IMG/VR virus record: IMGVR_UViG_2703718836_000012
Coordinates: 1 to 35,817 of that record
Strand: one strand, 5' to 3'
DNA: 35,817 nt
Source: a virus
Taxonomy: Duplodnaviria > Heunggongvirae > Uroviricota > Caudoviricetes
In this document: one piece after another, positions 27,001-30,000 of the stretch
Position numbering within the stretch: position 1 is the stretch's first letter
How the letters are laid out: each line of letters opens with the position of its first letter
Made by a program: the position numbers

Positions 27001-30000
27001 GAGCAGTAATCGGTTTCTTTAACTCAAGCTCTTTCATTACTGGTAATCCCCTTCTTCACCGTGGAACTCAAGATCAACCGTGCCTTCTTCGGCATTATGG
27101 TTCGCTTCGCCGTGCAGCCAGGCAGACGACAGTACATAGACCTGACCGTTCGCCAGCTCGGCAGTGATGGTCATCTCATCAGACGAGGTGATTTTGCTTA
27201 CCGGAAAATTCTTCGGCACCTTGAAGGTCCCTTTGACATAAGGCGCACGGTAAGTTTCCTTGCGGTCCACTGAACCGTCCAGGCCGATGATGTCATCGTT
27301 AACCGTTTTGTTCATGGGCACCTCAATGCCGCCGGTCAGCGATAGCTGCTGACCGTCAATTTTGAAATAACAGGTTCCCCCGATACGGGCCATTATGCAG
27401 ACTCCTCTGAATACTGAAGACGGAACTGATTAACCACGGCAAAGACACGCAGCTGGTTAACATAGTCAGGCGGGAACAGCGTGTTCAGGCGGTTCGGATC
27501 GCTGGCATCACGCTCCACAACCAGGTACTGCTTAAACAGTTCGTAGTTTTCCACGATCCCCGCACGCTCAAGCTGACGGTAGGTTGCCAGCAGTTCCCCT
27601 TTGATCACCGCCGGGGTGACAATCGCCTGACCGGGACCAAAGCGGGTACCGTCACTGGCAAGCTTGTGACGCCCGTACTTACTGGTAATGACGGATTTCA
27701 GTTTGCGCAGTACATACGCGCTGGTATGCAGCGTCTCACTGTCGAGGTAACTGTTATCCGCAACCCCGTAAGCGTTTTTCCTGTACGTAGTGACATCACG
27801 CTGAATGCGTAGTACCCCGCTTTCGACATACGCCGTTGCCACGCCATGAGACAGCAGGGTCTGTTGTTCGGTCATCGTGAACCGTTTCCCCTTCGGCGCA
27901 GGCAGCATACCCACCAGCTCACCGGTCTGCGTGGGACGTGCCGGATCGTTGCGGATAAACACCGCTGCGCGGGCGGTACGGCTTGCCGCCAGCTCGTCGG
28001 CAGGCGTCTGGGTCTCTTTTTCGTACCCCGCCAGGGTAATGTGCTGCTGGTTAAACTGGTCACCTGCGGTCACCAGTTCTGACAGCGTGCCGATCTTTGC
28101 CGTATACACATGACCATACAGCTGACGCGCATAGCTCCAGCGACCGCTGGTATCGTTCATCTCGGTCACCAGCGTGTTAACGGAGGCCGTGTCGTTGAAC
28201 GGCAGGCCGATATAATCAAACGGCTCATCCGCCATTGCAGCCACCGCGCCGGTGAGAACCGGAGCACCCGTTCCGGCGGTACCCGTCGCCACGGCAATCT
28301 GTACGCCCGCTGGCAGCACTTCGCCCCCACCAAAGCCGTAGTAATTGAGGCTGACAGGAATTTCATTCCCACAAAGCCCCTTATGACGCGCGGTCAGTGT
28401 GACCACGCCTGCCGAAGATGAAGCCGTAAACGGCAGGGTCGGAACGGCATTGATGGCATCCTGGATACTGCTGGCAATCATCGTGACGTTATCGCCGTTA
28501 GTCACCGGTGCCTGCACGCGGGTACGTCCTACATACACATTCACCGTGCCGGTTTCGGTTGCCACCCCGGTCACCGTCAGCGTAACTGTTGCCGCCGCAC
28601 CTGTGGATTCAGGAACGGCAATCACATACAGCTCGCCAAACGGGTCAGTCTGGCGATAAGCCTCGACCATACGCGCCAGCTGACTTCCCGCACCACAAAT
28701 CTGGCGTGCATAGTCTGCCGACGACATCAGTACCAGACTGTTGGCAACAATCTCTGCACCGTTATTGGCATGACCAATCAGCAGCGATGCTCCGCTGTCC
28801 TGTGCAGTATTCGCCGCCTGGTTATCCATTTCCGCATAAAACAACGGAACCAGCGTATTCGACGGAATGGTGTTAAAGCTTATCGTCATCGGTGTTCACC
28901 TTTTTATTCACGCGCCGGATATCACCCGCTGCTTCACGGCGCAGCCAGTAGTTGTTCTCGTCAACATTTCGCCCTTCGGCGGGCAAAAGGTCGCCGCGGG
29001 CAGGGTCAGGCACTGACCGCCCTTTAACAGGTTTGACAAACATGAGGATCCTCAGGAAGGAAGGGTTATTTCGGTGTGATGTTCGATATCGCCGTCAGGC
29101 CCGTTACCGGGCTCGAGATAATCAACATCAATCGCCAGCGTTTGCAGTTCATCCAGACTGTTCAGATCATCCTGCTGGCGGGTACCCGGAATGGTTTTGC
29201 CGACCACGTTGCCGATACACCAGGTCATGATGGGATTGCCGTCATGATGAAAGCGCCCCGATTCAATTGCCGCTTCCAGCTCTTTCATCGGGTCGGACAT
29301 GTTGGTGTAGTTCTGAATGATGGTGACGGGGTTCAGGTCTTCATCAGCAAGGTCATGTGACAACCCGGTCGCCCCGAAGGGGTCGATGGGTGACTCGCTG
29401 ACCGGGCTGATTTTGTTCGCCGCTTTGGCCTCCTCGAGGATGTAGCGATAATCCACCTCTGCACCATCGGTAACGGTCAGGACGCCCATTTCCACCCATT
29501 TCTGAAAGCGTTCGGCTGTCCGGCGATCTTCATTTTTCTCGACGCTATACACCGTGTCATACGGTACCCAGAAACGCGGGGCCACACTGTAGTAATGCGT
29601 TTTACCGTCAATCTCGCGGGTATAAAGTCGCGCCATGCTGTTCATATCCAGCTTACGCGCCAGGTCAAAGGCCAGAATGCACGGCTGCCCCTCGAACTGC
29701 TCAAGGGTCAGTGATTTATCCTCGCAGCTCTGCCAGCTCACCAGGTTGAAATACGCCGAACGCGCCGACACCCAGATATTGAGGTGTTTTGTTTTAAAGA
29801 CGTTTGCCAGACGGGCGTTATTTTTCGCACGCTGCTGCTGACTTAACAAAAATTCGCGATAAACCGACACGCCAATATTTGGATTGGCTTTTTCCAGCAC
29901 CTGCGGGTCGGTCCAGTCGTCACCTTCATCAACGGTATAGATGATCCCGAACAGTTCATCGTTTGGCACCGAGCCGTTGAGCATCTCGATGACTTCCCGC

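What the first reader, a model, noticed from the sequence alone, without database searches (positions are those of the whole stretch)
28873..29054. No head genes between terminase and tail sheath: defective prophage or tailocin-like cluster
TerL ends at 29052 and the sheath gene starts at 28889, with only a 56-aa ORF between. Portal, protease/scaffold, capsid and head-tail connector genes, which lie here in SfV-like phages as I recall them, are absent. The lysis, regulation and complete contractile-tail modules appear intact, so induction might yield tail-only particles (tailocin-like) rather than virions.
Basis: partly seen in the sequence, partly recalled or inferred. Interest (0 to 1): 0.55.

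Follow-up and report, generated by a model that had tools for sequence, protein, structure and literature searches.

The report
Headless SfV-like prophage from one deletion
An SfV-type prophage lost its whole head module and two tail-finishing genes in one clean 5.1-kb deletion, so it is an ordinary, recently crippled prophage rather than a tailocin; the break lies at a short DNA motif where many independent deletions in related prophages also start.

Summary
The terL ORF (29052-30764, minus strand) is followed only by a 56-aa DUF2635 gene and the sheath gene. SfV portal, protease, capsid, adaptor, head-closure and tail-completion proteins have no match anywhere in the window.

Alignment to phage SfV (97% identity) shows one clean deletion of SfV 2141-7215 (5,075 bp). 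The junction is the dinucleotide TA at window 29183-29184.

The "TerL" is a chimera: TerL residues 1-527 fused in frame to the last 43 residues of the tail-terminator protein. The contractile-tail module is therefore not complete. The tail terminator and the tail-completion/Neck1 gene are lost. All 13 genes from DUF2635 to the fibre-assembly gene are full length.

The junction was absent from 5,426 complete E. coli genomes, the GTDB representative genomes, IMG/VR and JGI metagenomes. Near-identical relatives are either undeleted or carry a different deletion. This is recent, strain-specific decay, not a domesticated tailocin.

Unexpectedly, the same terL nucleotide is the left end of six other independent deletions. 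About 35 independent terL rearrangements cluster at TA|AC or TA|CC sites on both partners. That points to sequence-directed breakage, possibly by the phage's own cos-cutting HNH/terminase nuclease. This last step is inferred, not shown.

The parts
29183..29184 (-). Deletion junction. The dinucleotide TA is shared by both parents. Gene-strand sequence: ATTCCGGGTA|CCCGCCAG.
   Evidence: The two blastn blocks against SfV overlap by exactly these 2 nt.
29185..30764 (-). terL-derived part of the chimeric ORF (TerL residues 1-527 of 577). The C-terminal 50 residues are lost.
   Evidence: Pfam TerL_ATPase covers residues 86-256. TerL_nuclease covers 268-522 and stops at profile position 250 of 286. 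97.9% identity to SfV TerL residues 1-531.
29052..29182 (-). Remnant of the tail-terminator gene (SfV orf9 residues 144-186 plus stop), read in frame with terL.
   Evidence: tblastn orf9 144-186, 93% identity. The Pfam Phage_tail_terminator domain lies in residues 3-135, which are deleted. An undeleted 99.97%-identical relative, L032, shows the native site GACGATA|CCCGCC.
28873..29043 (-). DUF2635 gene (Mu gp38-like), intact, with the native 8-nt spacing to the upstream stop codon.
   Evidence: Pfam DUF2635, E 1e-16. 100% identity to SfV orf10.
27393..28889 (-). Tail sheath gene, intact (498 aa).
   Evidence: Three Pfam sheath domains. 98.4% identity to SfV orf11 over its full length.
18673..27393 (-). 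Rest of the Mu-like tail module, all full length: tube, assembly chaperone, tape measure, gpN, gpP, gp45, gp46, gp47, gp48, fibre, fibre-assembly protein.
   Evidence: Pfam hits. tblastn covers each SfV protein at 89-99% identity; all are full length except the fibre-assembly protein, matched over 163 of 167 residues.
30764..31255 (-). terS (P27 family), intact.
   Evidence: Pfam Terminase_4. 99.4% identity to SfV orf1.
31306..31315 (-). cos cohesive-end sequence TGCCCGCCCC, intact. An inverted copy, GGGGCGGGT, lies at 31346-31354.
   Evidence: Sequence read. The 10-nt cohesive end of SfI, reported as highly similar to that of SfV (one base different), is given in PMC3636060.
31381..31731 (-). 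Terminase-associated HNH endonuclease gene, intact (116 aa).
   Evidence: Pfam HNH, E 2e-16. 94.8% identity to SfV orf53.
32237..34057 (-). Lysis cassette: two holin-family genes, a GH19 endolysin, and Rz/Rz1-like spanins.
   Evidence: Pfam Phage_holin_8, Phage_holin_3_7, Glyco_hydro_19 and LysC. Rz is 65% identical to SfV Rz.
34836..35456 (-). Q-type late antiterminator-like gene (DUF1133 / Phage_antitermQ).
   Evidence: Pfam.
13618..17900 (+). O-antigen modification cargo at the att-proximal end: gtrA, gtrB, a 413-aa type-specific glycosyltransferase and a 349-aa acyltransferase.
   Evidence: gtrA and gtrB are 99% identical to SfV. Pfam DUF6056 and Acyl_transf_3. The same cargo sits next to paoD/thrW in relatives.

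Best explanation
Window 13.4-35.8 kb is the late half of an SfV-type serotype-converting prophage. This type combines an HNH-TerS-TerL packaging module, an HK97-like head and a Mu-like contractile tail. Relatives show that it sits at the thrW site of an E. coli or Shigella chromosome.

A single recent deletion of about 5.1 kb (SfV coordinates 2141-7215) joined codon 527 of terL in frame to codon 144 of the tail-terminator gene. It removed the TerL C-terminus, portal, prohead protease, major capsid, Ad1 adaptor, head-closure and tail-completion/Neck1 genes, and 143 of the 186 codons of the tail terminator.

Shown: the element cannot encode heads or a complete terminase. cos, HNH, terS, the lysis cassette, the Q-like gene, the O-antigen-modification cargo and 13 tail genes remain intact.

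Inferred: on induction the late operon would still be read through the in-frame junction, giving lysis and tail proteins. Without the terminator and completion proteins, the tails would be unstable or of uncontrolled length rather than functional tailocins. The prophage probably persists because the deletion disarms a lethal element while leaving its O-antigen-modification cargo (gtr genes and acyltransferase) in place.

Inferred, for how the deletion arose: two ends were rejoined through a shared TA, terL GGGTA|ACG with terminator GATA|CCCG. The site type is hit again and again in related prophages, so the break was sequence-directed rather than random.
For: Clean two-block alignment to SfV with a 2-nt overlap. 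In-frame chimera shown by translation. Absence or presence of every SfV late protein tested by tblastn. Family assignments for the deleted and retained genes. cos intact.

The undeleted 99.97%-identical relative L032 gives the native partner site. The 99.99%-identical relative L027 has a different deletion, capsid gene to terminator gene, at GGTAAC. The junction is absent from 5,426 complete E. coli genomes, GTDB representatives, IMG/VR and JGI metagenomes (one unrelated chance match). The fusion protein is not on record.

Recurrent breakpoints: six other deletions start at the same terL nucleotide and end in a lambda-like tape-measure gene, gpN, two different fibre genes and two sheath positions. 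Their DNA was read in L011-L018. Native terL has only 5 TAAC sites, and the 4 that lie in the sampled zones are the largest hotspots. Under a null model of in-frame pairs with at least 2 nt of microhomology, 0.11% have TA|MC on both sides; about 10 of 22 observed junctions do, P about 2e-24.
Against: No reads were available to confirm the junction in the source assembly. The early, integrase and immunity part of the prophage lies outside the window. No experiment shows what is produced on induction. Some contractile systems tolerate loss of accessory tail proteins, so 'no functional tails' is an inference from Pfam assignment and from general phage-assembly knowledge (T4 gp3/gp15, P2 gpR/gpS, lambda gpU/gpZ). 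The hotspot survey sees only rearrangements that leave a long in-frame ORF, and many junctions were inferred from protein sequence plus native DNA rather than read directly.
Confidence: 0.85

Rival explanations
1. Domesticated R-type tailocin: the head module was lost, and the tail and lysis genes are kept by selection to make tail-only bactericidal particles.
For: Thirteen tail genes from DUF2635 to the fibre-assembly gene are full length at 89-100% identity to SfV. The lysis cassette and a Q-like gene are present. The deletion is in frame, so late transcription and translation can run on. Genuine tailocins with SfV-type tails exist in Pseudomonas (PMC4684702, PMC2647930).
Against: The tail-terminator domain and the tail-completion gene are deleted. 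cos, HNH, terS and 91% of terL are retained. The junction is unique to this sequence, while near-identical relatives are undeleted or deleted differently. Other headless relatives are decaying further, with stop codons and frameshifts in sheath, gpN and gp45 in E. coli 300033. The high identity to SfV reflects recency, not purifying selection.
Confidence: 0.06
2. The deletion, and the class it belongs to, was made by the phage's own cos-cleaving machinery (HNH endonuclease with terminase) cutting pseudo-cos sites on opposite strands. The two 3' ends, each ending ...CGGGTA, were then joined through the self-complementary TA.
For: Read 5'->3' into the junction, the retained strands end ...TTCCGGGTA (terL) and ...CTGGCGGGTA (terminator gene). 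Five other partner sites also end CGGGTA. The natural cos cut of SfI (its cos is reported as nearly identical to SfV's) leaves the 3' overhang TGCCCGCCCC, so the complementary 3' end is GGGGCGGGCA, 7 of 8 matches to GGCGGGTA. A second class of recurrent ends...TCGCCCC in L018 and in gp48 in three loci, resembles the other cos 3' end...CCGCCCC. Terminase-linked HNH enzymes are strand-specific nickases with sites CSG^GT or YCG^GT (PMC3592412). The only module common to all affected prophages, including one with a lambda-type tail (L013), is HNH-terS-terL. Products of TAAC x TACC events always carry the right partner's base (11 of 11), as expected for annealing of two 3' ends followed by fill-in.
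Against: No enzymology exists for this HNH protein. The published family nick position (G^GT) is 3 nt from the observed junction. Several hotspots (GTGATA|AC, GAGGTTA|AC) fit the cos-like motif poorly. Sharing of the packaging module is partly built into how the loci were found. CGGGTA and TACCCG are not depleted in SfV: 9 and 15 copies. GC-rich short motifs make chance resemblance easy.
Confidence: 0.3
3. Ordinary microhomology-mediated illegitimate recombination (replication slippage or alternative end joining) with no special site; the shared breakpoints reflect abundant codon pairs such as GGT-AAC and GAT-ACC.
For: The junction has only 2 nt of microhomology. Some sister events use 5-15 nt of perfect microhomology: P0142, P0010, P0123, P0136 and the P0162 inversion.
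Against: Seven independent events share one terL nucleotide. Left ends cluster at 6 of the 8 TA[AC]C sites in the sampled 850 nt of terL. 8 of 22 mapped partner ends fall on the 29 T|ACC boundaries among 5,002 in-frame boundaries. A null model of at least 2 nt of microhomology gives P about 2e-24. Longer perfect microhomologies were available but were mostly not used.
Confidence: 0.15
4. Assembly artefact: the head module exists in the strain but was collapsed or mis-joined.
For: No reads were available. The junction occurs in no other public sequence searched.
Against: Assemblers do not join unrelated sequences across a 2-nt overlap. The join is in frame and has the same structure as six DNA-verified sister deletions from independent assemblies, one of which is also reported on a 4.87-Mb contig.
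Confidence: 0.03
5. Heads are supplied in trans, for example by the neighbouring 13-kb thrW island that carries a capsid-like gene, so that particles are still made.
For: A Phage_cap_E-type major-capsid-like gene (4045-5076) and a tape-measure-like gene (1868-3739) lie 8-12 kb from the prophage end.
Against: No portal, protease, terminase or connector genes were found in the island. Its capsid family is unrelated to the SfV capsid, with no tblastn hit. The prophage also lacks its own portal, adaptors and a complete TerL. The island occurs on its own at thrW in another strain.
Confidence: 0.02

Closest known systems
Shigella/E. coli serotype-converting phage SfV (NC_003444) and its relatives SfI, SfII and SfIV
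   Same: 97% nucleotide identity over terS-terL and over DUF2635 through the fibre-assembly gene. Same gene order, same cos decamer, same HNH gene, and gtrA/gtrB next to the thrW attachment end.
   Different: Lacks SfV 2141-7215, which holds the head module, tail-completion gene and most of the tail terminator. Carries a different type-specific glycosyltransferase plus an acyltransferase, and a different holin/endolysin set.
R-type tailocins built from SfV/Mu-like tails (P. syringae R-syringacin 'Rp4'; SfV-like tail cluster 'prophage 01' of P. fluorescens Pf-5)
   Same: SfV-type tail genes and a lysis cassette without head genes (PMC4684702, PMC2647930).
   Different: The Pf-5 cluster lacks integrase and head genes and sits at a conserved chromosomal site across strains, and the P. 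syringae tailocin was functionally characterised. Here cos, HNH, terS and a truncated terL remain, the tail terminator and completion genes are missing, and the deletion is strain-specific.
Decaying SfV-type prophages of E. coli at thrW and argW (for example the argW prophage of strain 300033)
   Same: Same phage type. Independent loss of the head module, with terL lying next to the sheath gene. A wide range of other deletions occurs in the same prophage family.
   Different: Different end points. Strain 300033 keeps a full-length terL and has accumulated stop codons and frameshifts in tail genes, whereas the tail genes in this window are still intact.
Terminase-associated HNH nicking endonucleases (N.phiGamma, N.BceSVIII, HK97 gp74)
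   Same: A small HNH protein encoded next to cos, terS and terL. Published sites CSG^GT / YCG^GT resemble the CGGGTA and YCGGTA ends of the recurrent deletions.
   Different: The specificity of the SfV-type enzyme is unknown. The published nick position is 3 nt away from the observed junction. A role in making deletions has not, to my knowledge, been reported.

Membership tests
SfV-type serotype-converting prophage | HNH - TerS (P27 family) - TerL packaging module with the cos decamer TGCCCGCCCC | tested here: met
   Pfam hits. cos read at 31306-31315 and compared with PMC3636060. terL is truncated at residue 527.
SfV-type serotype-converting prophage | Mu-like contractile tail genes in SfV order (DUF2635, sheath, tube, chaperone, tape measure, gpN, gpP, gp45-48, fibre, fibre-assembly protein) | tested here: met
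   All 13 are full length at 89-100% identity. Pfam hits.
SfV-type serotype-converting prophage | HK97-like head module (portal, protease, capsid) and connector genes between terL and the tail genes | tested here: not met
   No tblastn hit in the window. The alignment gap is SfV 2141-7215. This reflects secondary loss, not a different ancestry.
SfV-type serotype-converting prophage | gtrA-gtrB-gtr(type) cargo next to the thrW attachment site, with integrase at the other end | tested here: inconclusive
   gtrA and gtrB are 99% identical to SfV, followed by a type-specific glycosyltransferase. Relatives place this end next to paoD/thrW. The integrase end lies outside the window, and the window contains no tRNA gene.
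R-type tailocin | Complete set of tail-assembly genes, including the tail terminator and completion proteins | tested here: not met
   The terminator domain (orf9 residues 3-135, PF23840) and the tail-completion/Neck1 gene (phrog_879) are deleted.
R-type tailocin | Head, packaging, replication and integration genes absent | tested here: not met
   Head genes are absent, but cos, HNH, terS and 527 of 577 terL codons remain. The early region continues beyond the window, starting with a DUF968 gene at 35428-35808.
R-type tailocin | Own lysis cassette linked to the tail genes | tested here: met
   Holins, GH19 endolysin and spanins at 32237-34057.
R-type tailocin | Conserved at a fixed locus across a lineage (evidence of retention by selection) | tested here: not met
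   The junction is found in none of 5,426 complete E. coli genomes, nor in GTDB representatives, IMG/VR or JGI metagenomes. Relatives 99.97-99.99% identical are undeleted or deleted differently.
R-type tailocin | Tail-like particles with bactericidal activity | not testable with these tools
   Needs induction, electron microscopy and spot assays.
Terminase-associated HNH nicking endonuclease | Small HNH-domain protein encoded next to cos and the terminase genes | tested here: met
   116-aa HNH protein at 31381-31731, 66 nt from cos and upstream of terS. The family is described in PMC3592412.
Terminase-associated HNH nicking endonuclease | Site- and strand-specific nicking at 3-7-bp sites such as CSG^GT | not testable with these tools
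   Only indirect evidence: recurrent deletion ends read CGGGTA, YCGGTA or GCGGTA.
Capsid-forming phage satellite (considered for the neighbouring island, window 1-13000) | Own capsid together with portal, protease and terminase genes | tested here: not met
   Only a capsid-like and a tape-measure-like gene were recognised. No portal, protease or terminase was found with Pfam, PHROGs or PADLOC.

The most novel reading that the evidence does not exclude
SfV-type prophages are repeatedly 'decapitated' by a sequence-directed process. Breaks occur at short quasi-palindromic sites, (G)NTA|MC and above all CGGGTA/TACCCG, that mimic the 3' ends made at cos. The two ends are rejoined through the TA. 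The agent would be the phage's own HNH/terminase cos nuclease, which would make prophage inactivation partly self-inflicted and predictable in position. The deletion in this window would be one product of that process.
Probability: 0.3. Interest if true: 0.7.

Novelty: new member of a known kind. Interest (0 to 1): 0.38.

Why it matters
For annotation: the 570-aa "terminase large subunit" is a terL::tail-terminator chimera, and the apparently complete tail cluster lacks two assembly genes. Prophage-completeness or tailocin calls based on gene lists would be wrong here.

For biology: the deletion is an ordinary step of prophage decay. However, it sits at a nucleotide that is the end point of at least six other independent deletions, and about 35 terL rearrangements share a short motif on both partners. 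If breakage is sequence-directed, and possibly caused by the phage's own packaging nuclease, then the way lysogens disarm prophages while keeping useful cargo (here the O-antigen modification genes) is not purely random. It could be tested directly with one purified enzyme and a genome-wide census of junctions.

Tried and rejected
1. Exact look-up of the fusion protein and exact junction scans of GTDB representatives, IMG/VR and JGI metagenomes found nothing. The single metagenome hit is an unrelated gene sharing a 20-mer by chance.

2. Hairpin or palindrome idea. The junction CGGGTACCCG is a perfect 10-nt palindrome, which suggested stem-loop bypass or hairpin opening. This was rejected because the partner sites natively contain TACCCG, and the same partner site is used with a terL site that has an unrelated left flank (P0157).

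3. Gyrase subunit exchange with a 4-nt stagger predicts equal numbers of TAAC and TACC products. All 11 informative products are TACC, so this was rejected.

4. KpnI/BstEII-like restriction sites, IS target motifs (IS5, IS630, IS608), secondary sites of the integron integrase, Gin/Hin crossover sites, Tus-Ter, EcoKI and RusA (cuts 5' of CC) were each compared from memory with the site list. None fits all sites and none was tested further.

5. A third protein search, with the fibre protein, was meant to find other left partners at the fibre TACCCG site. It returned only normal 216-aa fibre variants. It did lead to the near-identical loci L027 and L032.

6. The neighbouring capsid-bearing island was considered as a head donor. 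No portal, terminase or protease was found there.

7. Motif avoidance: CGGGTA and TACCCG are not depleted in SfV, so there is no signal of selection against these sites.
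Full report
**What is in the window**

Six-frame ORF listing and family searches show a minus-strand late operon. Its order is:

- Q-like gene (34836-35456)
- two holins, a GH19 endolysin and spanins (32237-34057)
- an HNH endonuclease (31381-31731)
- the cos decamer (31306-31315)
- terS (30764-31255)
- a 570-aa "TerL" ORF (29052-30764)
- DUF2635 (28873-29043)
- sheath (27393-28889), tube, chaperone, tape measure, gpN, gpP, gp45-gp48, fibre and fibre-assembly gene, down to 18673

These are followed on the plus strand by an acyltransferase and gtrA-gtrB-gtr(type) (13618-17900). 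Megablast against phage records identifies SfV, SfI, SfII and SfIV as the closest phages at 96-98% identity.

**The observation checks out**

blastn of the window against SfV gives two abutting blocks: window 18692-29184 = SfV 17708-7216, and window 29183-31322 = SfV 2140-1. SfV 2141-7215 (5,075 bp) is therefore missing, and the junction is the shared dinucleotide TA.

tblastn with each SfV protein shows the following:

- terS, HNH, DUF2635 and every tail protein from sheath to fibre are covered end to end at 95-100% identity; the fibre-assembly protein is matched over 163 of 167 residues at 90%.
- Portal, protease, capsid, Ad1, head-closure and tail-completion proteins have no hit anywhere in the window.
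- The tail terminator (orf9) matches only over residues 144-186.

Translation shows that the terL reading frame runs straight into the terminator frame: TerL 1-527 + orf9 144-186 = 570 aa. The Pfam TerL_nuclease match stops at profile position 250 of 286.

SfV orf9 carries the Phage_tail_terminator domain in residues 3-135, and orf8 is a PHROG "tail completion or Neck1" protein. Both functions are therefore lost.

**Recent decay, not domestication**

The junction is absent from 5,426 complete E. coli genomes. The only records with terL next to the sheath gene are one other lineage with a different deletion, and that prophage has stop codons and frameshifts in sheath, gpN and gp45.

The junction is also absent from one-genome-per-species GTDB representatives and from IMG/VR. 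The JGI metagenome scan gave one chance hit in an unrelated gene. The fusion protein is not on record among 153 billion gene positions.

Loci carrying the identical fibre protein include two informative relatives:

- L032 is 99.97% identical to the window from the junction outward. It has an intact terminator gene and shows the native partner site GACGATA|CCCGCC.
- L027 is 99.99% identical over 20 kb, including the neighbouring island. It carries a different deletion that joins a capsid gene to the terminator gene 75 nt further on, at a GGTAAC/GGTAAC repeat.

Other relatives have lost still other segments. The intact state of the tail genes here reflects how young the deletion is.

Genuine tailocins with SfV-like tails are known in Pseudomonas. 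The Pf-5 cluster lacks integrase and head genes and occupies a conserved site across strains, and the P. syringae tailocin was functionally characterised (PMC4684702, PMC2647930). None of the defining features that could be tested is met here, apart from the linked lysis cassette.

**Likely behaviour (inferred)**

The in-frame junction and the native 8-nt spacing before DUF2635 should let late transcription and translation continue. Induction would then give lysis and tail proteins. There would be no heads, no portal and no TerL C-terminus. From general knowledge of lambda gpA, the TerL C-terminus is the prohead-docking end.

Loss of terminator and completion proteins in T4 (gp3/gp15), P2 (gpR/gpS) and lambda (gpU/gpZ) gives unstable or over-long tails (established knowledge, not tested here). 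Functional tailocin particles are therefore unlikely.

**An unexpected regularity**

A protein search with the chimera returned, above all normal TerL clusters, a series of singleton fusion proteins from independent E. coli assemblies. Six of them (P0001, P0002, P0003, P0004, P0005/6 and P0008) break terL at the very same codon as the window (...KTIPG|). They continue into different genes:

- a lambda-type tape-measure gene
- gpN
- a glycine-rich fibre gene
- the SfV-type fibre gene
- two positions in the sheath gene

I fetched their contigs and read the junctions. Five read ATTCCGGGTA|CCCG..., one reads GGGTA|GGGGCG, and one reads CCGGG|CACGG. The partner sites natively contain TACCCG.

A second search with TerL 1-201 gave about 22 more independent rearrangements. 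Left ends cluster as follows:

- FACD| (3 events)
- GIEV(N)| (4 events)
- LIG(NPG)| (4 events)
- NGS(V)| (3 events)
- AEVY| (2 events), NM| (2 events) and ALIMAV| (2 events)
- IPG| (7 events including the window, plus one use as a right end)

Native terL has only five TAAC sites. The four that lie in the sampled parts of the gene (nt 408, 534, 591 and 1581) are exactly the four largest hotspots, broken as GATA|AC, GTTA|AC, GGTA|AC and GGTA|AC. Two TACC sites (678 and 797) are also used.

Partner ends fall on T|ACC codon boundaries in 8 of 22 mapped cases, although only 29 of 5,002 in-frame boundaries downstream of terL are of that kind. Under a null model in which any in-frame pair with at least 2 nt of microhomology is equally likely, 0.11% of pairs have TA|MC on both sides. 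About 10 of 22 observed junctions do, P about 2e-24.

Further independent deletions in loci already in hand show the same site types:

- GCGGATA|CC as the left end of L029
- GGATA|ACC as the right end in E. coli 300033
- gp46 GATA|CCTGG, used twice
- a shared right end in gp48 at window position about 19815 in three loci

The survey sees only events that leave a long ORF. That bias cannot create clustering at single nucleotides.

**What could cause it**

Read 5'->3' into the junction, the retained strands on both sides mostly end in CGGGTA, YCGGTA or GCGGTA. This describes the same short motif in head-to-head orientation, joined through the self-complementary TA. The products always carry the right partner's base (TACC, 11 of 11). 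That fits annealing of two 3' ends followed by fill-in. It argues against a 4-nt staggered exchange such as gyrase subunit swapping.

Two external facts make the phage's own packaging nuclease a candidate:

- The cohesive end of SfI (reported as nearly identical to SfV's) is the 3' overhang TGCCCGCCCC (PMC3636060), and it is intact here. The natural cos cuts therefore leave 3' ends ...GGGGCGGGCA and ...TGCCCGCCCC. The first resembles the terminator-side end CTGGCGGGTA in 7 of 8 positions. The second resembles another recurrent end class...TCGCCCC.
- HNH proteins encoded next to cos and terminase genes are strand-specific nickases with sites CSG^GT or YCG^GT (PMC3592412).

The HNH-terS-terL module is what all affected prophages share, including one with a lambda-type tail.

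Against this idea:

- The published nick position is 3 nt from the junction.
- Some hotspots fit the motif poorly.
- Sharing of the module is partly a consequence of how I found the loci.
- Nothing is known about this enzyme's specificity.

I rate the nuclease identity at about 0.3. I rate sequence-directed (non-random) breakage as likely.

**Verdict**

The finding is real and precisely located. What it shows is an ordinary, recent, strain-specific deletion that turned an SfV-type prophage into a defective one. It is not a tailocin, because two tail-assembly genes went with the heads.

The added value lies in two points. The annotated TerL is a chimera. And the deletion belongs to a recurrent, motif-bound class of prophage deletions whose mechanism is testable.

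Noticed in passing
window 1-13000: A separate ~13-kb island at thrW. It holds an integrase (1-1215, +), a tape-measure-like 623-aa protein (1868-3739, -), a Phage_cap_E-type capsid-like protein (4045-5076, -), a DEAD-like 494-aa protein (7456-8940, -), a second small integrase (10579-11160, +) and YecR. No portal, terminase or protease was recognised. It occurs alone between paoD and thrW in E. coli XYEH3934. It may be an uncharacterised satellite-like element.
   Followed up: partly
terL codon 527 (window 29183-29190) and loci L011-L018, L020-L022: The terL nucleotide broken in the window is the left end of six other independent deletions. About 35 terL rearrangements cluster at TA|AC or TA|CC sites on both partners.
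   Followed up: yes
L027:560-680 (GCA_012989195.1) compared with window 29108: A prophage 99.99% identical to the window over 20 kb carries a different head/neck deletion. A capsid gene is joined to the tail-terminator gene at a GGTAAC repeat, 75 nt downstream of the window's junction. L032 (99.97% identical) is undeleted.
   Followed up: yes
window ~19815-19821 (gp48, minus strand: GCGTATA|TGGGGCG): Three independent deletions in relatives (L026, L029, L031) share this right end point while having different left partners. The retained strand ends ...TCGCCCC(AT), which resembles the cos top-strand 3' end.
   Followed up: partly
window 31306-31354 (minus strand): The cos decamer TGCCCGCCCC is intact, and an inverted copy, GGGGCGGGT, lies about 30 nt upstream. 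The defective prophage could therefore still be cut at cos, or be packaged by a helper phage of the same type.
   Followed up: partly
window 31824-32144 (-) and 34150-34764 (-): Two cargo ORFs lie in the late region. One is a 106-aa GrlR-like protein (Pfam 26.7 bits against a cut-off of 26.8). The other is a 204-aa protein with no family hit, located between the Q-like gene and the holin. In relatives this slot holds a KAP NTPase, SIR2, DUF6575 or a metallophosphoesterase.
   Followed up: no
window 13618-17900 (+): The O-antigen modification cargo differs from SfV. gtrA and gtrB are followed by a 413-aa DUF6056/GT_STM0557_N glycosyltransferase and a 349-aa acyltransferase. The same cargo is found with many differently decayed versions of the prophage, which suggests that the cargo is what is retained.
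   Followed up: partly
proteins P0125 and P0162: Some terL rearrangements are inversions, not deletions. terL is joined to the antisense strand of the tape-measure gene at TAACCC, and to the antisense strand of the terS region through a 15-nt inverted repeat.
   Followed up: no
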